Counted from the stretch's first letter, positions 6,043 through 25,948 are shown. The stretch is DNA of 43,953 bases from Pseudomonadota bacterium (GCA_039026255.1 JBCCMR010000001.1:1-43953), one strand, 5' to 3'. Translations and numbers: made by a program. The notes: generated by a model not told the origin, from the letters alone.

Positions 6043-6187
6043 AGTGGTGTTCCTTCCGGACGGGTCGCCGCGGGGAATGGCTCCGCCGGGGCGTCATATT
6101 CGGGCTGAGGCGCGCCACGGCGGGGTTCCGCCGCAGCGGTTTTCTCGTTTCCGGCGGGCCTTTTAGGGCCCGTTCCCCGCGGGAACC

Positions 6188-6230
6188 CCGACCGGGGCCG
6201 CAGCGGCGCGGCCGCGGCCCGGGGTGTCGG
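6188..6230 (-). terminator. GC-rich stem-loop just downstream of the substrate-binding protein gene (mRNA stabiliser or attenuator)
   Basis: Imperfect inverted repeat ccgac-cggggccgc...gcggcccg-gggtgtcgg at the SBP stop. No U-tract. Confidence 0.35.
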
Positions 6231-7811
6231 TCACTCTTTGAGGTAAACCAGGTCAAGCGGGCTAGATGTGGCCCAGATGCCCAGGGGCGCGTTGCCGACC
6301 TTTTCGTTGTAGACCGTGTGGTAGGGCAACGCGTTGGTGAAATAGATCGGCACCTCGTCGGCGATGATCTCCTGGAACTCTTTATAAAGCGCTTTGCGCT
6401 TTTCCGGATCCCCTTCTTTTGCGGCCATCGCCAAGAGGTCGTCCACGCGGGTATTGGCGTAGCCCTGGGTGTTCGACCACACGCCCTTGCCGATGTTCGA
6501 CGACAGGTAGGTGCGGTGCACGCCGATCACCGGGTCGCCCCAGTTAAAGACGGTGTCCCAGCTGAGGTCGAAGTCCATCTCGCCCATACGCTTGGCCCAT
6601 GTCGGGAAGTCGGCGCTGGCGCGTACCTCAACCTCGATCCCCACCTTCTTGAGCGCCGCCTTGACGTATTCAACCTGGGGCTTCACGCCCGGCCAGCCAA
6701 AATCGATGGTCAGATCGAAACGCTTGCCGTCTTCCATAGGAAAGCCCGCTTCATCAAGGAGCGCGTTCGCCTTGTCGAGATCGAGCGGGTAATCCGGCAC
6801 ATCGGCGTTGTAGAAGGGGCTATCCGGGTGAATGCCCGTTTTGGCGTCCGCGGCGGCGCCCAGCATCAGCGCCTTGTGGATAAAGTTCTTGTCGACCGCG
6901 TGGGCAATCGCCTGGCGCACGCGCTTATCCTGGAGAGGCCCGCGCTGGGTATTGATCGCGAGCCAATCAAGTGGCCCGATCGCGCCATAGCCTTCTGGCG
7001 TGACGGTCAGCTTTTCGTTCTTCTTGAGCCGGTTGATGATGCGCGGGATCGATTCGAATGCGCCCATTTGCACCTCGCCGTTTTCATAGGCAATGGCGCG
7101 GGCCGCTGGATCGGTGATAATGCGGAGCACAATTTCGTCCAGATAGGGCCGACCCTCTAGGAAGAAGCCGTCGTAGCGCTCCATGATGACGTATTCGCCG
7201 TTCTTGAACTCTTTGAGCTTGAACGGGCCCGAACCTACTACGTCGGTGGTGTTGCGCGGGTGTGTCTTAGGGTCCTGGCCGTCACCGTAGATGTGTTTTG
7301 GGATAATCGCCATCAACTGGCCAGACATAGCTAACAAAAGTCCCGGATGTGGCTGGCTCAGCCGCAGAATCGCGGTGTGCTCGTCAGGCGTTTCTACTGA
7401 TGCGACAGGGGCAAACATGGATTTAAACGGGTGATGTGCCTTGATGACGTCGACCGAAAAGGCCACGTCCTCGGACGTGATCGGCGCCCCGTCATGGAAG
7501 GTGGCGTTCTTGCGCAAGTTCAGCGTCACGCTAAGCCCGTCTTCGGCCACTTCCCAGCTTTCGGCCAGATAGGGCTGCGGCTCCCAGTTATCGTCATAGC
7601 GCAGCGGCGCGGCAAAAAGCTGGGCGCCGGGATAGCCCGTGACGATGCCTGACTGCACCGCCGGGTTCAGGTTGCGCACGTTGGTGCCCAGAACCGAAAT
7701 CAGCGTGCCGCCGCGGGTGGGCTCTTCGGCCCAACTTCCCGTGGCAACCGTCGCTGTGAGCGCAAGCCCTAGCGCGGCGGTTCGGGCCATGCCCGTGAAA
7801 AAACGTCTCAT
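6231..7811 (-). CDS. family 5 ABC substrate-binding protein (DppA-like)
   Basis: Signal peptide, RGGTL, PYLAESWEV, LRKNATFHDG.PITSEDVAFS, VGSGPFKL, DKRVRQAIAHAVD. Confidence 0.93.
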   Translation of the reverse strand: MRRFFTGMARTAALGLALTATVATGSWAEEPTRGGTLISVLGTNVRNLNPAVQSGIVTGYPGAQLFAAPLRYDDNWEPQPYLAESWEVAEDGLSVTLNLRKNATFHDGAPITSEDVAFSVDVIKAHHPFKSMFAPVASVETPDEHTAILRLSQPHPGLLLAMSGQLMAIIPKHIYGDGQDPKTHPRNTTDVVGSGPFKLKEFKNGEYVIMERYDGFFLEGRPYLDEIVLRIITDPAARAIAYENGEVQMGAFESIPRIINRLKKNEKLTVTPEGYGAIGPLDWLAINTQRGPLQDKRVRQAIAHAVDKNFIHKALMLGAAADAKTGIHPDSPFYNADVPDYPLDLDKANALLDEAGFPMEDGKRFDLTIDFGWPGVKPQVEYVKAALKKVGIEVEVRASADFPTWAKRMGEMDFDLSWDTVFNWGDPVIGVHRTYLSSNIGKGVWSNTQGYANTRVDDLLAMAAKEGDPEKRKALYKEFQEIIADEVPIYFTNALPYHTVYNEKVGNAPLGIWATSSPLDLVYLKE

Positions 7812-7904
7812 GGAGGTCTCCCCGGTTAGTTATTGGTTAACGTGTTATAGCCCAAACCTGCACCGGGACAGCTACGGCGTCAAACTCTTGTTGGTCGCGT
7901 CGTT

Positions 7905-8549
7905 CTATGGGCCATCGCGAACTACTAATCCGGTGAAGATGCGGTCCAAAAAGCCGATGATGCGCGTCTCAAAGGCAATTCCGGGATCAGGCAGCGGCCC
8001 GCCCTCCATGGTGCTGACCACGTCGCAACAGCCATGAAGCAGCGACCAAATCATCAGCGCGGTATCATCGGGGTCGTCCACGGCCAAGTGCCCGGCATCA
8101 ATGCCCTGGGCCAGTTCCCGGGATAAAAGCGCAATGGTTGCGGCGCCCGCGGTTTCGTCGGCGTCGTTCCTGGGGCGCAACATCACGCGCACCCACGACG
8201 CATGATCACGCGCGAAGTGACAGTAGGCCAAGCATCCACCCGTGAGCCGAGCGCGCCAGTTATCCCCGGCCCGATCCAGCGCCGCCACAATTGCCGGCCC
8301 CATGCGGGCGAACCCTTCGTCCGCGACCGCACGCAGGAGCGCGTCTTTATCCTTAAAGTGCATGTAGGGAGCGTTGTGGCTGACACCTGCGGCCCAGGCC
8401 AGGGCACGCAGCGAAAGCGCCTCGGGCGGGGTATCGCGCAAAATATCTAAGGCCCGCGCCACCAGATCGGCCCGTAGGTCGCCGTGGTGGTAGGGCCTTG
8501 TGCTGCGCGGCGGGTCACTGGTTCCAGCGCATATATCGACATCGTCCAT
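7905..8549 (-). CDS. TetR/AcrR family transcriptional regulator
   Basis: YHHGDLR, LSLRALAWAAGVSHNAPYMHFKDKDALL helix-turn-helix, C-terminal IWSLLHG. Start codon uncertain. Confidence 0.9.
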   Translation of the reverse strand: MDDVDICAGTSDPPRSTRPYHHGDLRADLVARALDILRDTPPEALSLRALAWAAGVSHNAPYMHFKDKDALLRAVADEGFARMGPAIVAALDRAGDNWRARLTGGCLAYCHFARDHASWVRVMLRPRNDADETAGAATIALLSRELAQGIDAGHLAVDDPDDTALMIWSLLHGCCDVVSTMEGGPLPDPGIAFETRIIGFLDRIFTGLVVRDGP

Positions 8550-8568
8550 ATTACCGCCCATCCGTTAT

Positions 8569-8612
8569 ATTGACACTGCCCAGGACGCCCGTAGGACCTT
8601 GCCCCTGTCAAG
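8569..8612. promoter_or_regulatory. two imperfect CTTGACA-C-TGTCAAG palindromes (putative TetR operators); the first contains a TTGACA -35 hexamer
   Basis: attgacactgcccag (8569-8583, 12/15 match) and cttgcccctgtcaag (8598-8612, 13/15 match) between divergent genes. Confidence 0.5.
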
Positions 8613-8802
8613 CCACCGCCTGCGCGTCGCGCTCCGTTATCTGCATCTGGCCGCCGGGGCTGTGGTAGCAGCGCTGATCTATAGCCCGCTCAAGGGTGTA
8701 CCGGCAGTCTTTGGGGCCATGGCCCAAGGTGTGCTGCCGGTGCTGATCGCCTCCGGGCTTGTGCTTTGGAAACTGCCGCAGATGCTGCGCGCCCTGCGCT
8801 AG
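8599..8802 (+). CDS. small two-helix membrane protein, divergent from TetR
   Basis: TTG after AGGA. LRVALRYLHLAAGAVVAALIYSP...GVLPVLIASGLVLWK gives two hydrophobic segments. Confidence 0.6.
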   Translation: MPLSSHRLRVALRYLHLAAGAVVAALIYSPLKGVPAVFGAMAQGVLPVLIASGLVLWKLPQMLRALR

Positions 8803-8999
8803 GCCCGCCATGCCTGAGCCCCGGGGGTAGAAAACGGCACTGCCCGGACTATCTGGGCGAGAATTCGCCGACGCTACCCCACCCCGCGCGCGTATTTTTG
8901 CCCTGCCCACCCGCGGCAACCCGCTGGTTATTGCATAACCCTTCCACGCTTCGCATGTTGGGGCATTGAGGACACCGCACACAAAAGGCCCTGGAACCC

Positions 9000-9416
9000 A
9001 TGCGCCCAACTCGCTTGATCCCCGTTGCGATCACACTCGCCGCGCTAGCCCTATCCAGCGGGCCGCTGAGCGCCAAAACCCCGCTGCGCGACAACACGGC
9101 AATCAACGACCAGCTCCTGGTGGTCGGGCTCGCCAACGAGATCCGCAAGACCTGCGGCTCGATCTCTGGGCGACTGGTCAAGGGGGTGTCGACCCTGCGC
9201 GCGATCCACCGCCAGGCCCTGTCCGAGGGCTATTCCAAAGACGAAATCGAAGCTTATGTAGATAATCGCGACGAAAAGAATCGCATGAAAGCGCGCGGGC
9301 GTGCCTGGCTTGCGGCGCGGGGGGCAAGCCCGGATAACCCTGACACCATGTGCCGCGTGGGCCGCGAAGAAATCGCCAAGGCCAGCGCCATCGGTTCACT
9401 TTTGTACGAAAACTGA
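9000..9416 (+). CDS. DUF5333-like secreted protein (nuo-cluster accessory ORF)
   Basis: Signal peptide, KTPLRD..I...L...LANEIRKTC.SI.GR, GYSKDEIEAYV, C.VGREEI...SAIGSLL. Confidence 0.8.
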   Translation: MRPTRLIPVAITLAALALSSGPLSAKTPLRDNTAINDQLLVVGLANEIRKTCGSISGRLVKGVSTLRAIHRQALSEGYSKDEIEAYVDNRDEKNRMKARGRAWLAARGASPDNPDTMCRVGREEIAKASAIGSLLYEN

Positions 9417-9486
9417 CCTGCTGCGCCCGGCACCCACGAGCCCTTGTCGCTTGAGCCGCGCACCCATCCGGTTTAGGCCAAATACG

Positions 9487-9957
9487 ATGGGACGCGCCGC
9501 CGGATACGCATTTGCGGGCGCGCAGGCGGCCGCCTGCGCCATTTTCATTTCAGCCTGCACCCCTGAGGACCCCGCCCGGGACAGGGCCAGCGACCCCACG
9601 ACGTACCCAGTTTTACAAACGGACGCCGATGATGCCCCAGCGGTCGCACCTCCGCGCTACGGCACGATCCGAACCCGTCTGTTGGAAGGCGATCTTGTTG
9701 CCATCGACGTCACCGTGGAAAACGCGCTGTCAGAGGCGGTGGTGCTGCGGTTCGGGGACTGCGCCGCTGCTCGCTATGCGCTGATCCGTGGGGTGCGCTT
9801 TGCCAGTCGGGTTACGAACCAGGTTACCCGCTCGGGGGACACCTGGACTGGGGCCGGGGTCTACACGCTCTGGCGCGCGGACCCGGGATCGACGTCCGTG
9901 ATCGCTGCCCGCGCCACGGTCGCCGGGTGCGAGGCCGACGGCATCCCCACCGTCTGA
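9487..9957 (+). CDS. lipoprotein resembling a Rhodobacteraceae nuo-cluster accessory ORF
   Basis: Lipobox ISAC. LLEGDLV, CAAARYALIRG..FA, VYT and terminal C...GIPTV match my recollection of this family. Confidence 0.7.
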   Translation: MGRAAGYAFAGAQAAACAIFISACTPEDPARDRASDPTTYPVLQTDADDAPAVAPPRYGTIRTRLLEGDLVAIDVTVENALSEAVVLRFGDCAAARYALIRGVRFASRVTNQVTRSGDTWTGAGVYTLWRADPGSTSVIAARATVAGCEADGIPTV

Positions 9958-10105
9958 CCCGGTATGTCCACGTTGCCCTAGGCGTAACTGTGGCAGGCAC
10001 AGCGAAAATGTTACTTGCGGTCAGCGGCGCAGTTCCATTGACTGGACCCACTGGGCAGTCCGCATTAAATGCGCTCGCCCGTAAGACCCCCAAGGAAAGA
10101 CCCCC

Positions 10106-10522
10106 ATGAGCGAACTCGCCAAATTCTTCGACGGCATGATGCGTCAGAGCCAGGACATGGCCGAAAAGATGGGAATGGACACCCGTTTGATGGACCCCTG
10201 GCGCGAGATGATGGTCAAAAACGTCGAACTGGCCGAAGATATGGTTCCAGCGCAGATGAAAGAAGCACTGGAGCATATGGTGGGCCAGGGGCTTGACCCT
10301 AAAGCGCGGGCGCTCACCACCGTGGCAGGCCTGACCGCGCGGGGTGCCGAAGACACCGCGATCCTTACCACAGCCATCAACGCCGCCATCGCAGCGGGGG
10401 CGTCGAACCGCGAAATCTCCGAAACCATATTGCAGATGGCCGGGATCGGCGCCGTCACTGGCGTGCCCAAAGCAATGACCATCGCCATGGGGATCATGGC
10501 GTCGAAAGGAGGCGCGCGATGA
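10106..10522 (+). CDS. carboxymuconolactone decarboxylase/AhpD-like protein (nuo-cluster accessory)
   Basis: RBS AAGGA. Met-rich N-terminus, GLDPKARAL.TVAGLT..GA, A..AGAS..EI.ETI.QM. Confidence 0.8.
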   Translation: MSELAKFFDGMMRQSQDMAEKMGMDTRLMDPWREMMVKNVELAEDMVPAQMKEALEHMVGQGLDPKARALTTVAGLTARGAEDTAILTTAINAAIAAGASNREISETILQMAGIGAVTGVPKAMTIAMGIMASKGGAR

Positions 10523-10899
10523 CGCGTTCATTCAAGAAAATCGCTTTGGGATTGATCTGCGGGGTGGGTTTAAGTGCCTGCGTCACGCAAGAGGATTTTG
10601 AGGCTAGCGTCGATGCCCGTATGGGCCAGCCCGATTTCTCGTTTGTGCAGCTTTGGGGCACGCCTACCGAAACCTATGACACAAGCGGTCGGCGTTTTCT
10701 GGGCTGGACGCGCACCACGACGATGACGCTGCCGTCAACCCCGCCCAGCTTTTACTACGGCGGCGCTGGGCGTATTTACGCGGTTGGCTATTCGGAGCGC
10801 ACCGTCACCCGCACCTGCCAGATCACGGTAGAATTCGCGCGCGCCGGGCGCAACTGGGTGTCGAAACGCTGGGGCTACCGCGGGCGCGGGTGCTTCTAG
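10519..10899 (+). CDS. hypothetical lipoprotein
   Basis: ATGA overlap with upstream gene, RBS AAGGAGG, lipobox LSAC, WGTP motif, two later Cys. Confidence 0.75.
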   Translation: MTRSFKKIALGLICGVGLSACVTQEDFEASVDARMGQPDFSFVQLWGTPTETYDTSGRRFLGWTRTTTMTLPSTPPSFYYGGAGRIYAVGYSERTVTRTCQITVEFARAGRNWVSKRWGYRGRGCF

Positions 10900-10935
10900 G
10901 GCTAGGCGTGGGCTAGCGGGACCGGAGTGTTGGTC

Positions 10936-11460
10936 ATGGGGTGGGCAATCACCTTCTATCTTGCCGGGGCGGGGCTTTTGGGCGGGACGGGACTTGCCAT
11001 ATGTTCTGACAGCACCGGCTGGCGGGCCGCAGGGCTGTTAGCGGCGGGGCTTGCCCTTGGCGTCTTGGGTCTTGTCGCCGGGGCGGGGGCCGTGGCACTG
11101 GTCTTAGGGACCGTCCACGGTGGAATCGCGGCTGCGGGCGTGGTTTGGGCCGAAGCGAGGCTTGACGAAGGCGCGCCAAAACCACCTGGCGCGGGACTGG
11201 CCCTGGGCCTTACGGTCGGCTTGGGATTTATGGTTGTGCTTAGCTTCGCCCTGGGTGAGAGGAGCGCATCCGTGGCGTCATTAGCGGGACATAGCACGAC
11301 GCAATCGGTGTTTTTACTGTCTTTAGGGGCGCTTTTCCTAGTCATCTGCGCCATCGCGGCCTTTGCGCTTTGGCGGCCAGAGGACGGACCAAAGGCATCG
11401 CCGGCGGCCCCGCTTTGGGGGCCTGTACGCAAACGCGACAAACGACGGCCCGGGGGATGA
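10936..11460 (+). CDS. nuoJ: highly divergent NADH-quinone oxidoreductase subunit J-like membrane protein
   Basis: Collinear with NuoJ by eye: FYL...GG...S...L.L..GA..VA..L..VHG....LD and C-terminal FLL.L..L....IAA..L.R. Sits between the CMD gene and nuoK. RBS GGAG. Confidence 0.6.
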   Translation: MGWAITFYLAGAGLLGGTGLAICSDSTGWRAAGLLAAGLALGVLGLVAGAGAVALVLGTVHGGIAAAGVVWAEARLDEGAPKPPGAGLALGLTVGLGFMVVLSFALGERSASVASLAGHSTTQSVFLLSLGALFLVICAIAAFALWRPEDGPKASPAAPLWGPVRKRDKRRPGG

Positions 11461-11996
11461 TCGCGCGCGCCTCGCAGGCCGTCGGACCGCGGACTTCCCC
11501 AAGGTTATTCCGAGGGGCGATGACAGCCGCCGTTTTTTGTGCCACCCTATTGGTCGCAGCAGTCCACGCCGAAGGCAACCAGCCCCAAAACCTATCAGAC
11601 TGCAACCGGCGCACTCACATTAGCCACGGGGGCCAAGACGGCACCCGCGACTATGGCAGCGGCATGGTCGGCTGGGTTGCCTGGTGGGCCCAGGAAGGAA
11701 CTTTCAAAGAGGTCTGGCTTGCCAACTGCCAAAGCGGCCAAGCACTCAGCGTGCGGACCGCAGAAGAACGTATTTCAAACCGCTATATTCCGGATCGCAC
11801 CCTGCGCGCGCGCGCAGCCCTCGCTACCTGGGCCGACACCGGGCCGGGATTTTTCACCGTCGACTGGATGGCCCAGCAGCTGGGCACCTTTGGCAAAGAC
11901 CTGACCGTGCGCGCCATGCGTGAGGAGGTATGCGCCTGCGCCGTCGCCTACCCCGACTTGCGCGGCACTAAGACCCCTTTTGCGGGGCTCGAATGA
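11457..11996 (+). CDS. hypothetical secreted Cys-containing protein between nuoJ and nuoK
   Basis: ATGA overlap with nuoJ stop (alternative start 11520). Signal-like segment, WW.QEG, C-terminal CACAVAYPDLRG.K.PF. Confidence 0.7.
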   Translation: MIARASQAVGPRTSPRLFRGAMTAAVFCATLLVAAVHAEGNQPQNLSDCNRRTHISHGGQDGTRDYGSGMVGWVAWWAQEGTFKEVWLANCQSGQALSVRTAEERISNRYIPDRTLRARAALATWADTGPGFFTVDWMAQQLGTFGKDLTVRAMREEVCACAVAYPDLRGTKTPFAGLE

Positions 11997-12124
11997 GCAA
12001 GGCACGGGGCGGGGAAAACGATGCCGGGGATGCCGAAGCGGTCCGGCGCCCTATATTGCGCCAGGTCGCCCCAGCTGTTGACCGGGCAAAGCCTTAAAGG
12101 ACCGCTGATGAAAGCACGCTTCCT

Positions 12125-12409
12125 ATGATCGGGCCTGACCATGTGCTGACCCTGGCGGCCGCCCTCTTTGCGTTGGGGGCATTCGGGCTTTTCCGCGGCA
12201 CGGGGGCGCTGATGCCCGCTGTTATATCAATCCATGTGATGGCGCTAGCCGCAGCACTTGGCGCCTTCGCCATAGGGGGGCTCTTTCCCGGCGCGGCGAT
12301 CCTGGCGAGCTCGCTGGGGCTGGCGGGGCTTGCCCTTGCCGTCGAGGTCTGCTTTGTGCGCGGGCGCACGGTGGACACCGCACCCGGCGACACGAAGGCG
12401 AAAGGGTAA
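12125..12409 (+). CDS. nuoK: divergent NADH-quinone oxidoreductase subunit K-like protein
   Basis: MIG.DH.LT.AA.LF..G.FGLF, SIHVM (canonical SIELM), GLA..VCF.R, terminal KG, directly upstream of nuoL. Confidence 0.8.
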   Translation: MIGPDHVLTLAAALFALGAFGLFRGTGALMPAVISIHVMALAAALGAFAIGGLFPGAAILASSLGLAGLALAVEVCFVRGRTVDTAPGDTKAKG

Positions 12410-12417
12410 GGCACCCG

Positions 12418-14367
12418 ATGGAAATCACACTTCTGCTGTTGCCGCTTCTGGGCGCTATCCTCTGCGGATGGGGGTGGCGGCTTTTCGGCGACACCGCCGC
12501 CACCTGGATCGCCACCCTCAGCAGCGTCGGCGCCGCCGCGCTTGCCTTTTGGACGGTGCTGACCTTCGACGGACCCCGGGTTGTGGCCCTAGGTCGCTGG
12601 ATCGAGTCCGGATCGCTCAGCACCGACTGGTCTATCTTGATCGACGGACTGTCCGCAGCAATGCTTTTGGTCACAATGACGCTCGTCGCGCTGCTGCAAG
12701 TATACGCCATCGGTTTTATGGCCCGCGACGAAGACTTCCCCGACGGCGAGGTATATCGCCCGCGCTTTTTCGCTTTTTTGTCGCTCTTTGCCTTCGCCCT
12801 AGGCGTGCTTTTCACTGCCGAAAACCTTCTCCAGCTGATTTTCGGTTGGCAGGCGGTGGCCTTTGTGGGCTTTCTTTTGACCGGCTTTTACTTTCGCAAA
12901 CCATCTGCAAACAGCGGAGCGATGCGCGCTTTTGTGACAGGACGGGTCGGCGACTCAGCGCTGTTAGTGGCCCTGGCGGCGCTATTCGCGGTGGCAGATA
13001 GCGCAGTCTTTTCGGACATCTTAGACACTACCACAATTGCCGCACTTCGGGCTGAGATTTGGACCGTGGCGGGCCGCGACATCACCGCGGCAAGCGCCGT
13101 TGGCGGGCTTTTAGCCCTGGCTGCGGCGTTCAAAGCGGCGCTTATATTCGCCCACATATCAGCACCTAGGTCCATGGATGCACCGGCCCCGGGCGCGGCG
13201 CTCATCGTTGTCCTCGGCGGGCTCCTCGTGGCAGTGTTCCTGGTTCTGCGGCTAGCACCGATCTTTAATGCCGCCCCCCTGGCCGGACTGCTGATGGTTG
13301 GGGCGGGCGGGCTCACGACCGTTTTCGGAGCGGGCGCGGCCCTGGCCCAGCGCGAACTAAAGCGTGTGTTGGCCTTCGCTAGCGTGTCTCAGGGCGGCGT
13401 GGTCTTCGTGGCGCTTGGCCTGGGCGCCTATGGCGCAGCATTAACACAGGCCCTGGCGGCGGCGGTGACGCTGACGCTTCTTTACCTGGGGGCCGGATCG
13501 GTAATTCGCGCCATGCAACGAGACCGCGATATGCGCGGCTATGGCGGCCTACGCAGTCGTATGCCTGTCACCTACGCGGCCATGGTTATCGGCGCGCTGG
13601 GGCTTGCGGGTGTGGGTATCCCGGCCACGGGGCTTGGGTTTGGGGGATTTACGTCTCTGGGCGCCATTGCCAGCGCCGCCCAGGACGCAGCCCGGGTGCC
13701 TGTGCTGGGCAACGGACAGACCCTAGCGCAGGCGGCGTTCTGGGCGCTTTGCATAAGCGGGCTTTTGACCGGACTATTTGTAGGGCGGCTGATATTGCTG
13801 ACGTTCCACGGGCGCCCCCGCGGCGAACGCAAGACCCACGACCAGGCCCAAGAGGCCGTCGCGACGGTCACGGTGCCTATGGGCATCCTGATGGCCGCAA
13901 CGGTGGCGGTCCCAGTCGCCGGAGCCTTTGCGGCTGGCCTGATGGGCCTTTCCACCGGGGGACAGGGCCCCGCGCAGGGTCTTAGCGTAATGGCAACGCT
14001 GGCCCCGCTCGGGGGCCTGGCGCTCGCATGGCCGATCTTTGCGCGCGGGTCCGACTGGCCTCAGGGGGCGCAGGGGTTGGGCAACTTCTTGCGCCAGGGT
14101 TGGGGGCTTGACGCCCTCGTGGAGCGGGTGACCATTACCCCGCTTCTTTGGCTGGGAGAGCGGCTTTCACGCCGCCTTGATGGCCAGGTCATCGAAGCTG
14201 GAACCACAACGCTGGCGCGTGTTTTTGCCAGGGGTGCCTTGCCCTGGTTTGCCCGCCCGACCCAGGACCCCGATACCCCCGCGGGCGGGGTCGCTCACTA
14301 CGCCATGGTCAGCCTGTCGGCCGCCGCAATTCTGGTGATCTTTTTCGCGGTGCGGAGCGTCGGCTGA
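12418..14367 (+). CDS. nuoL: divergent NADH-quinone oxidoreductase subunit L-like protein
   Basis: RWIESGSLSTDW, YRPRFFAFLSLF, GFYFRKPSAN, RVGD, KRV.A..SQ, LGAGSVI, DMR.YGGLR, LTFHG.PRG, C-terminal lateral helix region. Confidence 0.9.
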   Translation: MEITLLLLPLLGAILCGWGWRLFGDTAATWIATLSSVGAAALAFWTVLTFDGPRVVALGRWIESGSLSTDWSILIDGLSAAMLLVTMTLVALLQVYAIGFMARDEDFPDGEVYRPRFFAFLSLFAFALGVLFTAENLLQLIFGWQAVAFVGFLLTGFYFRKPSANSGAMRAFVTGRVGDSALLVALAALFAVADSAVFSDILDTTTIAALRAEIWTVAGRDITAASAVGGLLALAAAFKAALIFAHISAPRSMDAPAPGAALIVVLGGLLVAVFLVLRLAPIFNAAPLAGLLMVGAGGLTTVFGAGAALAQRELKRVLAFASVSQGGVVFVALGLGAYGAALTQALAAAVTLTLLYLGAGSVIRAMQRDRDMRGYGGLRSRMPVTYAAMVIGALGLAGVGIPATGLGFGGFTSLGAIASAAQDAARVPVLGNGQTLAQAAFWALCISGLLTGLFVGRLILLTFHGRPRGERKTHDQAQEAVATVTVPMGILMAATVAVPVAGAFAAGLMGLSTGGQGPAQGLSVMATLAPLGGLALAWPIFARGSDWPQGAQGLGNFLRQGWGLDALVERVTITPLLWLGERLSRRLDGQVIEAGTTTLARVFARGALPWFARPTQDPDTPAGGVAHYAMVSLSAAAILVIFFAVRSVG

Positions 14368-15959
14368 TGGATAACCTTTTGTCCATCGTGACTTTCTTAC
14401 CGCTTCTTGCCGCCCTAATCCTGGCGATATTTTTGCGCGGCGACGATGGCGCCGCCCAGCAAAACGCCAAGATTTTGGCGCTTGTGGCCACCGGCGCCAC
14501 TTTTGTGATCTCGGTGGCGATTGTGACGCAGTTTGAGCCAGCTACCACGGATTTCCAACTGGTGGAGCGGTTCGCATGGGTGAGCGATCTAAGCTACGCC
14601 ATGGGGGTCGACGGGGTAAGCCTTGTCTTTGTTATGCTAACCACAGCGCTAATGCCCTTTGTGGTGGGTGCCGCTTGGACAGTAAACACCCGCGTGAAGG
14701 AGTTTATGATTTTGCTCCTGGCAATTGAAACGCTTCTTTTAGCGGCCTTCCTGGCGCTGGATTTGATGCTCTTTTTTGTGGCCGCGGAGGCGGTGCTGAT
14801 CCCCGTGTTCCTGCTGATCGCCATTTGGGGCGGGGCGGAGCGTCTGACAGCAGCTTTCAAATACGCGCTGCTTGCCTTGATCAGCCTGGCTGCGCTTTTG
14901 ACTGCTGTGACACTCCTTTGGACCGCGGCAGGCACAACTGACATGGGCGCGCTCCTGTCAGCCGCCGCCGAAAACGGTCCATTGGCGCTTCTTGGGGACC
15001 AGTATACCGCAGTGATGGCCCTGTTACTGGGCGCATTTGCGGTCAAACTTGCGCTTTGGCCTGCGCATGTCTGGCTGCCCCAGGCCATGGCCCAGGCGCC
15101 CACCGGGGTCACGGTGCTTTTGTCGGCGGTGACAGTGAAACTGGGCGCCTACGGGCTTCTTAGGCTTTGGGTGCCCCTTGGCGCGCCGGGAATGGAACTT
15201 TGGGGGCCCTACCTTTTTGCCCTGGCCCTGGCGGCAATCCTCTTTGGCGGGCTTATGGCACTTGTCCAAGAAGACCTGATGAGGCTTTTGGCCTACGCAG
15301 GCGTGGCGCAGATGGGCTTTGTCGCGCTGGGCGTGCTAGGCGCCACGCGACAGGCGATTGACGGCGCACTTTTTGCGGTTGTGGCCCACGCTATTGCTGC
15401 CGCGGGCCTTTTGATCCTGGTGGGTGCCCTACGCGACCGGGTGGCCAGCACCCAGATCGAAAACTTTGGCGGCTTGGTGGTGCGCATGCCAGTGTTTGCC
15501 GTCGTCTTCATGATTTTTGTCCTTGGCGCGATCGGTTTGCCAGGCACGGCCGGCTTTGTGGGCGTGGTTCTTGTGGTCACCGGCGTCTTTCCCGCCGGGG
15601 CATGGGTGGCGATCCTCGGTGCGCTTGGCCTTGCAGTCGCAGCGGCCTACGGGATCAGGCTTTATCGGCGCGTCGTGGCCGGCGACCTCATTCGCGAAGC
15701 GCTTAAAGCAATCCGAGACCTTGACCGGCGCGAACTGACCCTTGTGGTGCCGCTGATTGCGCTGACGCTGGCGTTGGGTATCGCACCTAGCCTGATGCTG
15801 GATCTTGTGGGCCCCACGACCGAGGCCCTGGCGGCTACCTTTGAAACTGCAGCCCAGGCCGAAACTGATACGGCCACCAACACTTCCGCGCCGATCCACA
15901 TCGACACTGCCGATGCCGCGACCGCGACCGCCGCGCCCACTGCGGGCGCCGGGGATTAA
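14367..15959 (+). CDS. nuoM: divergent NADH-quinone oxidoreductase subunit M-like protein
   Basis: MDNLLSIVTFLP, FQLVE, MGVDGVS, E..LIP, IWGG..R, FAVK...WP.H.WLP, KLGAYG.LR, LVQED, GLPGT.GFVG. Confidence 0.93.
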   Translation: MDNLLSIVTFLPLLAALILAIFLRGDDGAAQQNAKILALVATGATFVISVAIVTQFEPATTDFQLVERFAWVSDLSYAMGVDGVSLVFVMLTTALMPFVVGAAWTVNTRVKEFMILLLAIETLLLAAFLALDLMLFFVAAEAVLIPVFLLIAIWGGAERLTAAFKYALLALISLAALLTAVTLLWTAAGTTDMGALLSAAAENGPLALLGDQYTAVMALLLGAFAVKLALWPAHVWLPQAMAQAPTGVTVLLSAVTVKLGAYGLLRLWVPLGAPGMELWGPYLFALALAAILFGGLMALVQEDLMRLLAYAGVAQMGFVALGVLGATRQAIDGALFAVVAHAIAAAGLLILVGALRDRVASTQIENFGGLVVRMPVFAVVFMIFVLGAIGLPGTAGFVGVVLVVTGVFPAGAWVAILGALGLAVAAAYGIRLYRRVVAGDLIREALKAIRDLDRRELTLVVPLIALTLALGIAPSLMLDLVGPTTEALAATFETAAQAETDTATNTSAPIHIDTADAATATAAPTAGAGD

Positions 15960-15971
15960 CGGGGCCTACCG

Positions 15972-17420
15972 GTGCTGGCGCTAGACCTGGCGACCGCCCT
16001 ACCCGAAACGGTGCTGGCGGTGTTCCTTTTGGCGGCCTTTGCCTTCGCCGTCCTGACCCGCGGCGACACGCTCACAGGCCCGATTATTGGCGCCACAACC
16101 GGCGTCATGGGGGCGCTTGGTCTCTGGATCGCGTTCCTGCCTGCCGCCAACCGAAGCGCCTTTGGCGGTATGCTTGTCGATGACGCCTTCGCCCGCTACA
16201 CCAAAGTGCTGATCCTGTGGACCGCGGGGGTCGTTTTGCCCATGGCCCAAGCGCACCTGCGCCGCACCGGGCAGCACCGCTACCCTTTCCCGATCTTGGC
16301 GGGATTTGCCGTTTTGGCGATGTTGTTGACCGTCTCAGCAGGGGACCTCGTGGCGCTTTTTCTGGCGGTTGCATCCCTGGCGGCCGCGCTGACCGGGCTG
16401 GCCACCCTCGGGCGGCGCACGCCGCGGGCAACCGCGTTGACGCTGCGTTTTACCCTGGGACTGATGGCCGGTCTGGGGCTGATCGCCTTTGGCATTGCAA
16501 TCTTGGTGGCGGCCACCGGCGCCACCGGCTACTCCGCCCTGCGCGCCACTCTAGCCGTGACCGATGGCGGACTGGCGGCGACGGTGGGGCTAGTGCTTTT
16601 GATGGCGGGGCTGGCGGTTTTTGCCGGGGCGGCGCCCTTCCACATCTGGTGTGGGGACATGCAGGCGGGGGCGCCCGGGTCATTGGCGATTGTCCTGGCC
16701 GCCCTCCCAAGGGTCACAGCCTTGGCAGCCTTGGCTAGGCTTGGCGTCGAAACCCAGGGCCCAGCCCAGGGGGACGGCCCACTCATTCTTGTATTGATCG
16801 GTGGTGGCTCGCTGCTTTGGGCGGCGTTTGCCGCCGCCGGGGAGCCGCACCTGCGCCGGCTGATCGCCCACGCGGCAGTCTTTGGGACGGGCCTGGCGGT
16901 CCTTGGCATGGCTGCGGCGCTGGCGACCGGGACCGCCGCGGGGATGCAGGCGGCCCTTCTGGTGCTAACCATGCAAGCCATAACGCTGACTGCGGCCCTT
17001 GCGCTTTTGACTGGGCTCGAACAGGACGGGCGTCCAGTGACCGCCGTGGTCCAGTTGCGCGGCTTTGGCCAAGCCGACCCGCTGCGCGCAGCAGCGCTTA
17101 GCGTTTTGATCCTAAATCTTGCGGGCTTGCCACCGCTCGCGGGGGTAGTGGGGGTAGGGTTCACACTCGGCGCGCTTAGTGCCGCTTGGCCCTGGGCGGC
17201 GGCCGTTGGGGCTGCAGTGCTCGTGCCTTTTGCAGCAGGTATGCTGCGGGTCATCTTTGCCCTCTATACCCCTACCGACGCCGACCCGCCCGATAGCACG
17301 ATGCCCGCCCTATCCTATGCGGCGCTCTTGGGGGGCGCGGCGGTGATGCTTTTGGGCCTTGTCACTACTTGGGGCACGGTCGAGCGCGCCGCGCGCGCGG
17401 CCCAAGCACTTTGGCAATGA
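15972..17420 (+). CDS. nuoN: highly divergent NADH-quinone oxidoreductase subunit N-like protein
   Basis: LPE..LA, AFGGML.DDAFAR..K, YP.PIL, SAGDL..L, PFH.W..D...GAP, LAGLPPLAG. Immediately upstream of birA. Confidence 0.85.
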   Translation: MLALDLATALPETVLAVFLLAAFAFAVLTRGDTLTGPIIGATTGVMGALGLWIAFLPAANRSAFGGMLVDDAFARYTKVLILWTAGVVLPMAQAHLRRTGQHRYPFPILAGFAVLAMLLTVSAGDLVALFLAVASLAAALTGLATLGRRTPRATALTLRFTLGLMAGLGLIAFGIAILVAATGATGYSALRATLAVTDGGLAATVGLVLLMAGLAVFAGAAPFHIWCGDMQAGAPGSLAIVLAALPRVTALAALARLGVETQGPAQGDGPLILVLIGGGSLLWAAFAAAGEPHLRRLIAHAAVFGTGLAVLGMAAALATGTAAGMQAALLVLTMQAITLTAALALLTGLEQDGRPVTAVVQLRGFGQADPLRAAALSVLILNLAGLPPLAGVVGVGFTLGALSAAWPWAAAVGAAVLVPFAAGMLRVIFALYTPTDADPPDSTMPALSYAALLGGAAVMLLGLVTTWGTVERAARAAQALWQ

Positions 17421-18187
17421 CGGTATCGCCGCTTTTCCCGGCGCCGCCCCCATGGCCAAGCGATGTGGACCGCGTGACGCTTCCCTCCGTCGACAGCACC
17501 ATGGCCGAAGTGCGCCGCCGGGCTCCGGTCGCGGGCGTTGACACCTGGGTACACGCCCTGGACCAAAGCGCCGGCACTGGACGGCGCGGGCGCGCCTGGG
17601 CGCAACCGCCGGGGAACTTTTCAGCCTCACTTCTCCTACGCCCGGAGGAGCCACCTTCCCGCCTGGCCCTGCGCAGCTTTGTGGCGTCCTTGGCCTTGCG
17701 GGACGCGTTAGTCGCTGTCACCGGCGAAGAGGACTGGTTTCAGATGAAATGGCCCAACGATGTCCTAATGCACGGCGGCAAAGTCGCCGGTATCTTATTG
17801 GAAACGCTAGCTGAACCCTCAGGTCCCGCGCTGATTGTGGGGATCGGCGTAAACCTGGCAGCAGCCCCTCCGGTGGCAGAACTGGAACCCGGCGCCATCC
17901 GACCCCGGTCGCTAGCTGGGAGCGGCATCAAAGTCGCCCCGGGCGATTTTCTCGACTATCTGGCGCCTGCGTTTTACCGCTGGGATCGGCTTTTGCGCGA
18001 CCAAGGCTTTGATCCCTTGCGCCGCGCTTGGCTAGACCGGGCCGCACGCATAGGTCAGCCGGTGGTGGCGCGCCTGCCCAATGAAGAAATCGCGGGCGTT
18101 TTTCGCACAGTGGACGCCACAGGCGCCCTTGTACTAGACACAGATGCGGGCCCGCGCACCATTGCCGCGGGCGACGTCTTCTTTTGA
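17417..18187 (+). CDS. birA: biotin--[acetyl-CoA-carboxylase] ligase
   Basis: VDSTM, Q.AG.GRRGR.W, KWPNDV, KVAGILLE, VGIGVN, AGDVFF. ATGA overlap with nuoN. Confidence 0.95.
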   Translation: MTVSPLFPAPPPWPSDVDRVTLPSVDSTMAEVRRRAPVAGVDTWVHALDQSAGTGRRGRAWAQPPGNFSASLLLRPEEPPSRLALRSFVASLALRDALVAVTGEEDWFQMKWPNDVLMHGGKVAGILLETLAEPSGPALIVGIGVNLAAAPPVAELEPGAIRPRSLAGSGIKVAPGDFLDYLAPAFYRWDRLLRDQGFDPLRRAWLDRAARIGQPVVARLPNEEIAGVFRTVDATGALVLDTDAGPRTIAAGDVFF

Positions 18188-18205
18188 GAGCGGGGAGGGC
18201 AAGCC

Positions 18206-18979
18206 ATGCTCCTGGCCATCGACGTAGGCAACACAAATTCAGTCTTTGCCATCCATGACGGGGAGAGATTTGTCGCCGAATGGCGCTGCGCAACCGAAGT
18301 GCAGCGCACCGCCGACGAATATTACGCCTGGCTGCGCAACCTAATGTCCTACCAAAACGTGCACGTCCCTATCGAGCGTATCGTGGTCAGTTCAGTGGTG
18401 CCGCGCGTGGTCTTTAACCTGCGGGTTCTGGCCGATAAATACTTCGGCACGCGACCTGTCGTGGTGGGCAAACCCGACTGCAACCTTGGGCCCGAGCCCC
18501 GGGTGGATGCCGGCACGATCGTCGGCGCCGACCGCCTCGTGAACGCCGTGGGCGCCTATGACCGCTATGGGCCCGACCTGATTGTGGTGGATTTTGGCAC
18601 GGCCACCACCTTTGACGTGGTGGACCACGACGGGGCCTATGTGGGCGGGGTGATTGCACCGGGTGTAAACTTAAGCATTGAGGCGCTGCATCGTGCCGCA
18701 GCCGCCCTGCCCCACATCGACGTGACAATGCCCGAAAAAGTCATTGGCACCAACACACTAGTGTGCATGCAAGCCGGGGTTTTTTGGGGTTACGTCGGTA
18801 TGGTCGAAGGGGTCTGCGCCCAGATCAAAGCCGAGTTTGGACGCCCCATGCAGGTGATCGGCACCGGCGGATTGTCGGGGCTATTCCAGCGCGGAACAGG
18901 GGCTTTTGACCACCTGGATGGCGACCTGACAATGCACGGGCTCTGGCTTATTGACCGGTTGAACCGCGACGCAGACTAA
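18206..18979 (+). CDS. coaX: type III pantothenate kinase
   Basis: LLAIDVGNTN, SSVVP, GADR, VVDFGTATTFD, GGVIAPG, IGTGG. Confidence 0.96.
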   Translation: MLLAIDVGNTNSVFAIHDGERFVAEWRCATEVQRTADEYYAWLRNLMSYQNVHVPIERIVVSSVVPRVVFNLRVLADKYFGTRPVVVGKPDCNLGPEPRVDAGTIVGADRLVNAVGAYDRYGPDLIVVDFGTATTFDVVDHDGAYVGGVIAPGVNLSIEALHRAAAALPHIDVTMPEKVIGTNTLVCMQAGVFWGYVGMVEGVCAQIKAEFGRPMQVIGTGGLSGLFQRGTGAFDHLDGDLTMHGLWLIDRLNRDAD

Positions 18980-19018
18980 GCTTCCCAGTCAGCGGTGCCG
19001 CGCGAAGCAGACTTTCCG

Positions 19019-19048
19019 ATTTTGAGTGTTTGGACAAAGAGGAAGAGG
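19019..19048 (-). repeat. dispersed intergenic motif, copy 1
   Basis: Minus strand reads cctcttcctctttgtccaaacactcaaaat. Confidence 0.55.
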
Positions 19049-19178
19049 CGAACCCAGCGCCGATCTATGGAACCCAGGATAATCGCACCGGGTTGGTGAC
19101 CGTTCGGCCGCGCATGGTCCAGAAGGACCCGGACGGCGGCCCGGGGGACCCAGATCGATCTATAACGCGGCGCCAGGG

Positions 19179-19207
19179 CTTGACCCCCGGCGCGCACTGG
19201 CCATAAC
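19179..19207 (+). promoter_or_regulatory. putative sigma70 promoter for rnj
   Basis: CTTGAC-N17-CATAAC, about 57 nt upstream of the ATG. Confidence 0.5.
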
Positions 19208-19264
19208 CCTCAGACCCCGAGCCAAAAGTGAAGGGGGCAGACCACGACCAAGGACACTTTCCCG

Positions 19265-20926
19265 ATGACCGAACGCTTGATCTTTGCCGCCCTGGGCGGG
19301 GCTGGCGAAATCGGCATGAATATGTACCTCTACGGCTGGGGTGCACCGGATGCTGAAGAGTTCATACTGGTGGACATGGGCGTGACGTTTCCGTCGATGG
19401 ACAGCACTCCGGGGGTGGACCTGATCATGCCCGACGTGGCCTGGCTGGCGAAGCGGGCAGATCGCTTGCGCGGCGTGTTTATCACCCATGCCCATGAGGA
19501 CCATATTGGCGCGCTTGGTCACCTTTACGCCCGGCTGGGCGGGCCACGGGTCTTGACCAGGGCGTTTACGGGCGCGGTGGCGCGGGCCAAGCTGGGAGAG
19601 CACGGCGTGGATGTGGATCAGGTCGAGGTGCTGGGCCCAATGCCGCACATGACCGATGTGGGGCCCTTTCAGGTCGGCTTTTTGCCTGTGCCCCACTCTA
19701 TCCCGGAAGCGTCTGGCCTTGTAATCGACACGCCGGCCGGACGTCTGGTGCACACCGGCGACTTTAAGCTCGACCCCGATCCCGTAGTAGGAGAACCCTT
19801 TGACGCCAGCGCCTGGGCCGCTGTCGCAAAACCGGGCGTGCATGCGCTTATCTGTGATTCGACCAATGTCTTTTCCCCGGCGCCGGGCCGGTCCGAGGCG
19901 GGGCTTGCCGAGGACATAGGCGCCCTAATCGAAGGCGCAAACGGGTTGGTGGTCGCCACGACGTTTGCATCTAACGTTGCGCGTCTAAAGACCCTAGCCC
20001 AGGCGGCCCAAGCTGCCGGGCGCAGCGTTTGTGTCCTGGGGCGCGCCATGCAGCGGATGCTGGGCTATGCCCGTGGGGCCGGACTCATCGACGACTTCCC
20101 CCCGGTCGTGGACCTAGAAGACGCCCATGAGATCCCCCGGGACCACCTGATGTTGATCGTCACCGGCAGCCAAGGCGAGCGGCGCGCGGCCTCGGCGCAG
20201 TTGGCCAACGGAAAATACCTAGGCTTTCGCCTGCAAGAGGGCGATCTTTTCCTCTTTTCGTCGAAAACCATCCCCGGCAATGAAGTAGGCGTAAGCCGCG
20301 TCATCAACCAGATGTCGGAGATGGGCGTGCGGGTGATCGATGACAGCGACGGGCGATATCATGTGTCGGGGCATGCAAACCGTCCGGACCTAGAACGGGC
20401 GCACGGGATTTTCAAGCCGCGGATCGTTGTGCCAATGCACGGCGAACACCGGCACCTGCGAGCCCATGCGGACCTGGCGCGGGCCGCGGGAATGGAGAGC
20501 CTTGTCGCTCCGAACGGCACGGTGGTGGACCTAACTCAAAACGCACCCAAGGTGGTGGATGCCATAGAGGCCGGGCGCACATATCTTGACGGGTCCGTCC
20601 TGATCGGAGCCTTTGACGGGGTGGTGCTTGACCGAGTGCGGATGGCCACGCGCGGCACGGTGGTGGTGGCGCTGATGGTGGAAGATGGCGCGCTTGTGGG
20701 CGACCCTTGGGCCGAAGCCCTGGGCATGCCCGAGGACGCAAACGCCCACGCGGCGCTTCAGGACACGATAGAGGCCGCGATTGCCGGTGAGCTTGGCGCC
20801 ATGCTAGCCAAGGGCGCCGACGATGAAGCGATTGAGCGTGCTACGGTGCGCGCAGTGCATCGGGTGACTAAGGACCAGGTCGGCAAAAAGCCTGTTGTGC
20901 GGGTATTAATCAATCACCTGACCTAA
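19265..20926 (+). CDS. rnj: ribonuclease J
   Basis: LGGAGEIGMN, ITHAHEDHIG, HSIPE, HTGDFK, FASNVAR, TGSQGE, IPGNE, HVSGHA, PMHGE. Confidence 0.96.
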   Translation: MTERLIFAALGGAGEIGMNMYLYGWGAPDAEEFILVDMGVTFPSMDSTPGVDLIMPDVAWLAKRADRLRGVFITHAHEDHIGALGHLYARLGGPRVLTRAFTGAVARAKLGEHGVDVDQVEVLGPMPHMTDVGPFQVGFLPVPHSIPEASGLVIDTPAGRLVHTGDFKLDPDPVVGEPFDASAWAAVAKPGVHALICDSTNVFSPAPGRSEAGLAEDIGALIEGANGLVVATTFASNVARLKTLAQAAQAAGRSVCVLGRAMQRMLGYARGAGLIDDFPPVVDLEDAHEIPRDHLMLIVTGSQGERRAASAQLANGKYLGFRLQEGDLFLFSSKTIPGNEVGVSRVINQMSEMGVRVIDDSDGRYHVSGHANRPDLERAHGIFKPRIVVPMHGEHRHLRAHADLARAAGMESLVAPNGTVVDLTQNAPKVVDAIEAGRTYLDGSVLIGAFDGVVLDRVRMATRGTVVVALMVEDGALVGDPWAEALGMPEDANAHAALQDTIEAAIAGELGAMLAKGADDEAIERATVRAVHRVTKDQVGKKPVVRVLINHLT

Positions 20927-25738: not shown

Positions 25739-25948
25739 CGTGGCAACCTCCAGTTTCAGATCGAAAGAGTTGGTGAATTGGGGTTCGGGTCGTTTGAACC
25801 CAGGGGTGTTGAGTATGTCTTAACCGGCGCGCTCGGGCTCGCTGTCATTCCAGGGCCAAGCTTGCGCGACTGCAGGTGGAGCGCTACAGTCCGAGAAGGC
25901 GCTGTGATGCGGCACCTAATTGATTGATATCTTTGACGGACTTCGTCC

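What the first reader, a model, noticed from the sequence alone, without database searches (positions are those of the whole stretch)
9000..17420. Remodelled complex I locus: nuoA-I absent, membrane arm nuoJKLMN and accessory ORFs kept intact
Seen: order is DUF5333-like, lipoprotein, a 148-bp gap, CMD-like, lipoprotein, nuoJ-like, hypothetical, nuoK, L, M, N, birA, coaX, rnj. No nuoA-I ORF is in the window. Known: in Rhodobacteraceae these accessory ORFs interleave a complete nuoA-N operon ending in birA-coaX-rnj, with nuoG-H-I expected between the lipoprotein and the CMD gene. Inference: the NADH module, quinone module, NuoA and NuoH were removed or relocated while intervening small ORFs were spared. 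About 6.5 kb of strongly diverged membrane-arm genes carry no frameshift or stop, which argues for continued selection. Candidates are a stand-alone NuoJ-N transporter or scaffold, or the membrane half of an uncoupled complex I.
Basis: partly seen in the sequence, partly recalled or inferred. Interest (0 to 1): 0.92.

Follow-up and report, generated by a model that had tools for sequence, protein, structure and literature searches.

The report
Complex I remnant without a pump
This marine bacterium has lost the electron-transfer half of respiratory complex I and carries genes for a sodium-pumping substitute, yet selection still keeps complex I's membrane subunits, which lack most proton-pumping residues and likely do a different job, possibly sodium/proton exchange; the same reduction appears in three separate lineages.

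Summary
Observation confirmed. Five open frames (nuoJ-like, K, L, M, N) sit before birA-coaX-rnj; nuoA-I are not found in the 77%-complete genome. The loss looks real: contigs from another run bridge both deletion junctions, three unlinked complex I accessory genes are missing too, and the genome has nqrA/B. Three relatives (95-98% complete) share this and keep only nuoL+nuoM; a tree rejects one origin. A second family repeats it with L-M-N (99-105). The remnants are under purifying selection: no stops where about 46 are expected, strain polymorphism in nuoM 15 silent to 3 replacement. Most pumping residues are gone; only NuoM Glu141 and Lys/Arg232 persist in 8 of 8 remnants. A III-IV supercomplex scaffold cannot be the general reason, since the second family lacks cytochrome b. 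Best guess (0.42): a redox-independent cation/H+ exchanger or leak serving Na+-NQR cells; rival (0.30): non-transporting scaffold. Not found in print in 10 searches.

The parts
9000..9416 (+). DUF5333 protein, accessory ORF of the ancestral nuo operon
   Evidence: Pfam E 3e-38; 57-59% to intact relatives, 79% to G056
9417..9486 (.). deletion junction where nuoG lies in intact relatives
   Evidence: order DUF5333-nuoG-lipoprotein in L040, L045; bridged by an X1 contig spanning 8056-9522
9487..9957 (+). predicted lipoprotein, accessory ORF (between nuoG and nuoH in relatives)
   Evidence: 50-55% to intact relatives' copy; no Pfam family
9958..10105 (.). 148-bp deletion junction where nuoH-nuoI lie in intact relatives
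   Evidence: bridged by an X1 contig spanning 9511-11010; no convincing nuo trace by tblastx
10106..10522 (+). CMD-like accessory ORF
   Evidence: Pfam E 4e-8; 49-53% to relatives
10519..10899 (+). predicted lipoprotein with no homologue in the loci examined
   Evidence: 1 of the loci scored (own); no family
10927..11460 (+). highly diverged NuoJ-like membrane protein (weak assignment)
   Evidence: position; global score above 300 of 300 shuffles, HMM score not above shuffles
11457..11996 (+). hypothetical exported protein; start at 11457 or 11520; lies between nuoJ and nuoK in an intact relative
   Evidence: 55% to G056, 32-33% to G015, G054
12125..12409 (+). NuoK remnant; both conserved Glu lost (E37->H, E73->L, G006 numbering)
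   Evidence: HMM 27.3 bits vs shuffle max 8.2
12418..14367 (+). NuoL remnant; TM5 Glu->Gln, TM7 Lys kept, His267/347/351, Lys355 and TM12 Lys417 lost
   Evidence: strain SNPs 9 silent/5 replacement
14367..15959 (+). NuoM remnant, the most constrained part; keeps Glu141, Lys232, Lys263, His346; lost His246, His320, Arg367, Glu405
   Evidence: model matches Paracoccus 8qby_M, Z 49.1, rmsd 2.2 A over 497 residues; SNPs 15/3
15972..17420 (+). NuoN remnant; Glu134, Lys218, His306, Lys392 lost, Lys248->Arg; stop overlaps the birA start
   Evidence: SNPs 5/6, not distinguishable from neutral
17417..20926 (+). birA-coaX-rnj, the ancestral downstream neighbours (context, not part of the remnant)
   Evidence: same position in all seven remnant loci

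Best explanation
This is what is left of the genome's only complex I operon: the redox half is gone, Na+-NQR genes are present and likely took over NADH oxidation, and the NuoL-NuoM core (here still with N, K and a J-like frame) is kept by selection and likely works as a redox-independent Na+/H+ exchanger or cation leak centred on NuoM's Glu141-Lys/Arg232 pair. Shown: gene loss, co-loss of unlinked accessory genes, nqrA/B, purifying selection, loss of most central-axis residues, repeated origin. Inferred: expression, assembly of an L-M complex, any ion movement, and the benefit (converting the sodium gradient made by Nqr into a proton gradient or pH control for a cell whose ATP synthase c subunit looks proton-coupled). 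The descriptive part I hold at about 0.9; the confidence given is for the transport mechanism.
For: All 7 remnant genomes carry NqrA. NuoM Glu141 is kept in 8 of 8 remnant sequences and position 232 is Lys or Arg in 8 of 8, although background retention of deeply conserved sites is only 0.21-0.62; Glu141 is the only charged residue among the 9 of 208 such sites kept in all. The equivalent Glu is lost in 7 of 7 NuoL and 4 of 4 NuoN remnants, and Paracoccus E141Q has a near-wild-type melting profile (PMC9802314, passages), so fold stability alone does not demand it. In Mrp the TM5 Glu of MrpD is the Na+/H+ coupling point (PMC7419157, passages), and L+M mirrors MrpA(N)+MrpD. NuoL mutants E144Q, K229A and H254A still let a salt-sensitive B. 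subtilis mrpA strain grow at 80 mM Na+ (PMC4938563, passages), so loss of NuoL charges need not exclude a Na+ role. In mitochondria a P-module lacking the N-module shows raised Na+/H+ exchange (bioRxiv 10.1101/2023.05.30.542932, first quarter and passages). The three family-f127 genomes have no other Mrp-type hit and no cytochrome b, which favours an activity intrinsic to the subunits over a respiratory partner. G000's c subunit reads EALGIF around the carboxylate; that this is the H+ type is recalled.
Against: The canonical path through NuoM is broken: His246 and Glu405 lost in 8 of 8, and E405Q or H246F abolish catalysis in Paracoccus. Arg367, whose human equivalent is tied to the exchange activity, is lost in 7 of 8. 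Lys232->Arg in 5 of 8 fits a permanent salt bridge as well as a switch. The best-kept segments are TM1, loops, the beta-hairpins and the C-terminal end, not the core. The small Mrp subunits that line the Na+ path are not in these loci, and the four same-genus genomes already have Mrp-type operons. The Nqr association is confounded, since losing complex I needs a replacement. Two of five Nqr-positive, NuoD-negative class genomes keep no remnant. No RNA or protein evidence.
Confidence: 0.42

Rival explanations
1. Non-transporting scaffold: L-M(-N) is kept as a folded platform that binds or stabilises another membrane complex (complex III/IV in this genus, something else in family f127).
For: Conservation concentrates on surface elements and the same sites are kept in independent lineages (NuoM 66 shared vs 49.2 expected, 0 of 10,000 permutations; NuoL 25 vs 15.9, p 0.0003). 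PDB entries 9g83, 9g9y, 9g9z, 9gae hold both Paracoccus NuoL/M and cytochrome b, 9g83 also COX1. All 4 same-genus remnant genomes keep petB and coxI. Most axis residues are lost.
Against: 0 of 3 f127 genomes (two single-contig) have cytochrome b, yet keep L-M-N; the two genomes with no remnant do have it. Entry 9fks holds cytochrome b and COX1 but is not listed for NuoL/M, so III-IV appears to exist without complex I. No partner gene is shared by all remnant loci. Glu141 retention is unexplained.
Confidence: 0.3
2. Entrenchment: the genes have no function of their own; they stay open and hydrophobic because they are transcribed with birA-coaX-rnj, so stops would be polar and misfolded products harmful.
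For: All seven remnants lie directly upstream of birA; nuoN overlaps the birA start. Constraint is much relaxed against intact copies and looks like fold maintenance. nuoN polymorphism here is 5 silent/6 replacement.
Against: nuoN, the gene next to birA, is cleanly deleted in 3 genomes while L and M are spared, in two independent lineages. Nine genes were deleted with neighbours intact. Between G709 and G807 NuoM has omega 0.07, like rnj 0.075 and coaX 0.093, at about 21% identity to canonical NuoM.
Confidence: 0.15
3. Ordinary decay in progress (pseudogenes not yet broken).
For: Identity to intact relatives is only 25-49%; J and K are barely recognisable; N, J, K are lost in relatives.
Against: About 46 stops expected over J, K, L, M, N under neutral drift to the same divergence, none seen; charges in TM segments stay at ancestral counts (0-2 vs about 9-10 simulated for L, M, N); omega = 1 rejected (2dL 352 for M, 216 for L); pN/pS 0.20 over L+M+N, p 3e-7. 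May still hold for N, J, K.
Confidence: 0.04
4. Split operon or assembly artefact: nuoA-I lie in the unassembled 23% of the genome.
For: G000 is 77% complete in 373 contigs; nqrC-F are also unassembled.
Against: Junctions are internal to contigs and bridged in another run; three 95-98% complete relatives show the same loss; MidA, NDUFA12 and NDUFS4 are missing in the same four genomes, and lgt runs straight into pgeF on C58; subunits lacking the pumping residues could not serve a normal complex I.
Confidence: 0.02

Closest known systems
Respiratory complex I membrane arm, Paracoccus denitrificans Nqo10-14 (PDB 8qby; PMC11522691, PMC9802314)
   Same: Orthologous genes at the ancestral site; best PDB match for L, M, N; NuoM model Z 49.1, rmsd 2.2 A.
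   Different: No N- or Q-module, NuoA or NuoH, no NDUFS4/NDUFA12/MidA; most central-axis Glu/Lys/His lost; in relatives reduced to L+M.
11-subunit complex I-like enzymes (lack only NuoE/F/G; PMC4453560, PMC12361115, passages)
   Same: A partial nuo set that is kept and presumably repurposed.
   Different: Those keep the quinone module and pump; here the quinone module is gone too. PMC4453560 states that subunits are generally lost or transferred together.
Mrp (CPA3) Na+/H+ antiporter, MrpA(N)+MrpD (PMC7419157)
   Same: A NuoL-type plus a NuoM-type subunit working without redox input; the TM5 Glu of the M/D-type subunit is the residue kept.
   Different: Descends from complex I, not Mrp; lacks MrpB/C/E/F/G in the locus and the TM12 and most TM7/TM8 lysines; activity untested.
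SAR116 LGC2-C/D: nuo replaced by nqr with a nuoL gene beside it (PMC8547437, one passage)
   Same: Marine alphaproteobacteria, Nqr replacing complex I, a nuo membrane gene left over.
   Different: There a single nuoL next to nqr, noted without analysis in the passage seen; here L+M(+N,J,K) at the ancestral site before birA, unlinked to nqr. Its Fig. S4A was not seen.
Mitochondrial P-module as Na+/H+ exchanger (bioRxiv 10.1101/2023.05.30.542932)
   Same: Redox-independent ion exchange by the membrane arm.
   Different: There the P-module has intact residues and includes ND1/ND3; the ND4 Arg linked to the activity is lost in 7 of 8 remnants.

Membership tests
Respiratory complex I (14 subunits) | N-module NuoE/F/G | tested here: not met
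   (genome 77% complete; same in three 95-98% relatives at the locus)
Respiratory complex I (14 subunits) | Q-module NuoB/C/D/I with NuoH and NuoA | tested here: not met
Respiratory complex I (14 subunits) | antiporter-like subunits NuoL/M/N by descent and fold | tested here: met
   fold modelled for NuoM only
Respiratory complex I (14 subunits) | central axis of TM5 Glu, TM7/TM8 Lys, TM12 Lys/Glu in L, M, N and two Glu in K | tested here: not met
   only M E141, K232, K263, H346 and L K242 remain in G000
11-subunit complex I-like enzyme | quinone module kept, only N-module missing | tested here: not met
   no NuoB/C/D/H/I
Mrp (CPA3) antiporter | one MrpA/NuoL-type and one MrpD/NuoM-N-type subunit | tested here: met
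   L+M in 7 of 7 remnant loci, but they score as Nuo, not Mrp
Mrp (CPA3) antiporter | small subunits MrpB, C, E, F, G in the operon | tested here: not met
   none among window ORFs; separate Mrp-type operons on C13 and C193
Mrp (CPA3) antiporter | essential LysTMH7, LysTMH8, LysTMH12, GluTMH5 in both large subunits | tested here: not met
   against PMC7419157 passages
Mrp (CPA3) antiporter | measured Na+/H+ exchange | not testable with these tools
   needs reconstitution or complementation
DAB/MpsAB inorganic-carbon transporter (recalled) | NuoL-like subunit paired with a DUF2309 protein | tested here: inconclusive
   no such Pfam hit among the 30 window ORFs scanned; rest of the genome not searched
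Pseudogene cluster | stops, frameshifts or neutral evolution | tested here: not met
   for L and M; N polymorphism not distinguishable from neutral

The most novel reading that the evidence does not exclude
When Na+-NQR replaces complex I, evolution repeatedly strips the enzyme back to a NuoL-NuoM dimer that works as a new, minimal class of secondary Na+/H+ exchanger built on one Glu-Lys/Arg pair: a reversal towards complex I's Mrp ancestry, and a natural isolation of the disputed redox-independent activity of the P-module.
Probability: 0.35. Interest if true: 0.93.

Novelty: new variant of a known kind. Interest (0 to 1): 0.8.

Why it matters
Complex I subunits are described as being lost together (PMC4453560). 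Here the distal membrane subunits outlive the enzyme in two independent lineages of one genus and in a second family, shed the proton wire, and stay under selection. That implies a second function of the membrane arm that is normally hidden by pumping. Whether the P-module exchanges Na+ for H+ apart from redox catalysis is a long-running dispute with a link to LHON. These two-subunit natural versions, with close intact relatives (some named as cultured species) and graded stages (J-N, L-M-N, L-M), make the question directly testable.

Tried and rejected
Homologue search with window NuoL found nothing closer than 46%, so no within-clade dN/dS from close species. Metagenome scan with G056 NuoM gave 12 loci at 24-35%, not followed up; genome scan with G056 NuoL returned only itself. 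Single-sequence fold was poor (pLDDT 47.6) and was replaced by an alignment-based one (79.0). Complex prediction of cytochrome b with NuoM gave no answer (score 0.00); this is no evidence either way. No RNA holder was listed. First codon-model run failed to converge for M, L, birA and was redone; dS is saturated in most pairs, so omega values are upper-bound profiles, and the G068 branch test is weak (omega up to about 0.3-0.4 allowed for M). The first rpoB tree mis-translated G022, which was dropped; the tree uses the 27 genomes having rpoB, rnj and coaX, its AU test 14 of them with 2,000 replicates (program warned that this is few). Five of 400 family genomes lacking NuoD were rejected as assembly gaps (NuoM 75-77% identical, no NqrA), as were G007 and G011; G045 (65% complete) is unresolved. 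A weak nuoN-like hit beside nqr in G543 is a response regulator. DUF5337 and the lipoprotein have no meaningful solved relative. Promoter scan was at chance level (3 vs 2.6). G585's J- and K-like frames are assigned by position and size only. Paper searches with no description of this arrangement: and one supplement search; the paper behind PDB 9g83/9g9y/9g9z/9gae was not found, so which complex I subunits touch III/IV is unknown to me.
Full report
1. Observation. The window is contig C1 of a 2.93-Mb, 373-contig, 77%-complete genome. NuoL, M and N are open, full length and 38, 49 and 37% identical to an intact relative, against 69-98% among intact relatives. Intact relatives' NuoM proteins are labelled Amylibacter/Neptunicoccus by their sources, so the genus is most likely Amylibacter (Rhodobacteraceae). 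In those relatives nuoG lies between DUF5333 and the lipoprotein and nuoH-I between the lipoprotein and the CMD gene, giving two deletion junctions. The nuoJ label rests on position and a global alignment above 300 of 300 shuffles; HMMs do not see it.

2. The loss is real. NuoD, H and F families give no hit in the genome; tblastn and HMMs built from intact relatives find no nuoA-D, F, H, I. The enoyl-CoA hydratase gene that precedes nuoA in relatives is followed by an unrelated gene on C200, and the two small ORFs that follow nuoE sit on C58 without nuoE or nuoF. Contigs of run X1 span 8056-9522 and 9511-11010, bridging both junctions (four runs, one study; X1 differs from the window at some sites but may still be related to its source). 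Of 56 genus genomes, 7 lack NuoD: G000, G018 (98%), G056 (95%), G068 (96%) and three 65-73% complete ones. Those first four also lack the NuoD methylase MidA (missing in 6 of 56), NDUFA12 (5 of 56) and NDUFS4 (7 of 56), all unlinked; among the 42 good genomes the three lacking NDUFA12 or NDUFS4 are G018, G056 and G068. All four carry full-length NqrA, as does one genome with intact nuo, G023. nqrA-B, apbE and a CBS gene are neighbours in all five and the NqrA tree follows the species tree, suggesting Nqr was already there before complex I was lost. nqrC-F are not assembled in G000 (contig ends in nqrB).

3. It recurs. G056, G018 and G068 keep the accessory ORFs plus only nuoL and nuoM before birA. 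A tree of rpoB+rnj+coaX puts G000, G056 and G018 together and G068 beside G055, which has intact complex I; one clade is rejected (delta logL 419). In 400 other genera of the family no further case appeared. In a class-wide sample 14 of 400 genomes have NqrA; 5 of these lack NuoD. Three (family f127; G709 and G807 are single contigs) keep open, very diverged nuoL-M-N directly before birA-coaX-rnj, G585 also two J/K-sized frames; two keep nothing. Earlier notes of this scan describe similar stand-alone arms in other genomes; I did not check them and do not count them as support.

4. Selection. Neutral simulations to the same divergence (40 replicates each) expect 16.9, 9.7, 11.5, 1.8 and 6.5 stops in L, M, N, K, J; none is present. 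Charged residues in hydrophobic segments stay at 0-2 against about 9-10 simulated, and replacements are far milder (the reference branch adds some bias in clade A, little for G068). A codon model on the three clade-A remnants rejects omega = 1 (2dL 352 M, 216 L); dS is saturated, but dN over rpoB dS gives about 0.24 for M and 0.38 for L. Differences between the window and contigs of runs X1 and X2 are 9 silent/5 replacement in L, 15/3 in M, 5/6 in N (pN/pS 0.23, 0.08, 0.53; one search listed 40 of 81 differences, all 37 for X2; depth 3-7, so some may be errors). The order M > L > N matches what other lineages keep. G709 versus G807 gives omega 0.07 for M, like rnj and coaX. Independent lineages keep the same sites more often than expected.

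5. Anatomy. Against 18-22 intact sequences in which these residues are invariant (M numbering equals Paracoccus Nqo13): NuoM E141 kept 8 of 8, 232 Lys in 3 and Arg in 5, K263 5, H346 4, H320 1, H246 0, E405 0; NuoL TM5 Glu 0 of 7, TM7 Lys 1 (Arg 2), TM12 Lys 2; NuoN TM5 Glu, TM7 and TM8 Lys 0 of 4, TM12 Lys 3 (not in G000); NuoK loses both Glu. One of the eight NuoM sequences (P0122) is a protein without known context. G557, which keeps a diverged A-D/H set, was left out of these counts and has lost E141. In Paracoccus E141Q, K232Q, K263Q, E405Q and H246F severely reduce catalysis, so canonical pumping is excluded. Best-kept segments are M's TM1, TM1-2 loop, beta-hairpin, TM13-14 loop and C-terminal end, and L's N-terminus and hairpin. 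The NuoM model keeps the fold.

6. Mechanism. I first favoured a scaffold for a III-IV supercomplex, because PDB entries holding Paracoccus NuoL/M also hold cytochrome b and all four genus remnants keep petB and coxI. One search went against it as a general reason: the f127 genomes lack cytochrome b. A function intrinsic to L-M fits the spread better. Ancestry (Mrp), the identity of the one kept Glu (the Na+ coupling residue in MrpD), tolerance of NuoL charge loss in a Na+ rescue assay, reported exchange by an N-module-less P-module and the presence of Nqr in 7 of 7 point to cation/H+ exchange (0.42). Against: no TM12 exit residue, Arg367 lost in 7 of 8, Lys-to-Arg shifts, redundancy with Mrp in this genus, surface-weighted conservation. 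Scaffold 0.30, entrenchment 0.15, decay 0.04, split or artefact 0.02; the remainder covers other intrinsic roles such as lipid or quinone handling.

7. Relation to what is known. Not a member of complex I, of 11-subunit complex I-like enzymes or of Mrp (see tests). Papers seen as passages: PMC8547437, PMC11522691, PMC9802314, PMC12361115 (plus one supplement search, no hit), PMC4453560, PMC4938563, PMC7419157; first quarter and passages of bioRxiv 10.1101/2023.05.30.542932. Nearest precedent in print: a nuoL beside nqr in SAR116. Ten searches found no description of a selected, pump-less L-M remnant; the library lacks most subscription papers, and unseen supplements (SAR116 Fig. S4A; preprint extended data) may bear on this. 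E. coli residue numbers and the H+-type reading of the c subunit are recalled.

8. Verdict. Real, recurrent and selected; function unproven. New variant of a known kind, interest 0.8.

Noticed in passing
L236 (G557:C6), 5556-14420: Compact, diverged operon nuoA-B-C-D-H-J-K-L-M-N before birA-rnj, without E, F, G and I; NuoM has lost E141 while NuoN keeps its Glu and Lys. A different reduction path in an NqrA-positive genome.
   Followed up: partly
L078:1727-2614 (G000:C58): The ORF that follows nuoE in relatives (two TM helices, Pro/Ala linker, HhH-like end) matches RC-LH1 'protein O' (8yy9, E 1e-30 with the G056 copy) and, with DUF5337, is kept in all four remnant genomes, so neither depends on the redox arm.
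   Followed up: partly
G000:C58, 7819-9511: lgt overlaps pgeF directly, with no midA between them; that midA normally lies there is recalled.
   Followed up: partly
L083:14023-14830 (G018): The CMD accessory gene is in two frames and the lipoprotein is reduced to a trace, while nuoL and nuoM stay open: an internal contrast between decaying and kept genes.
   Followed up: partly
L046 and L087 (G023): Carries both an intact nuo operon and a full nqr operon at the same site as in the remnant genomes: a candidate pre-loss state. All 3 family members in the class sample also have both.
   Followed up: partly
L053 (G009:C63): A second, more distant nuo operon (49-80% identity) in a same-genus genome.
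   Followed up: no
L088 (G058:C49), also G008, G017, G051: Weaker NqrA-like gene followed by shorter NqrB/C-like genes; an Nqr/Rnf variant in genomes with NuoD.
   Followed up: no
window 8500-8802 (+) and 7905-8561 (-): Small hydrophobic ORF without family, divergent from a TetR regulator, now sits upstream of the remnant in place of nuoA-F; may supply its promoter.
   Followed up: no
window 24167-27436: Divergent pair: a peptidoglycan-binding-domain protein and a trypsin-like peptidase.
   Followed up: no
L233, L235 (G585, G807): rpoB-rpoC lies directly upstream of the remnant in two f127 genomes, suggesting it is transcribed with highly expressed genes; these genomes lack cytochrome b.
   Followed up: partly
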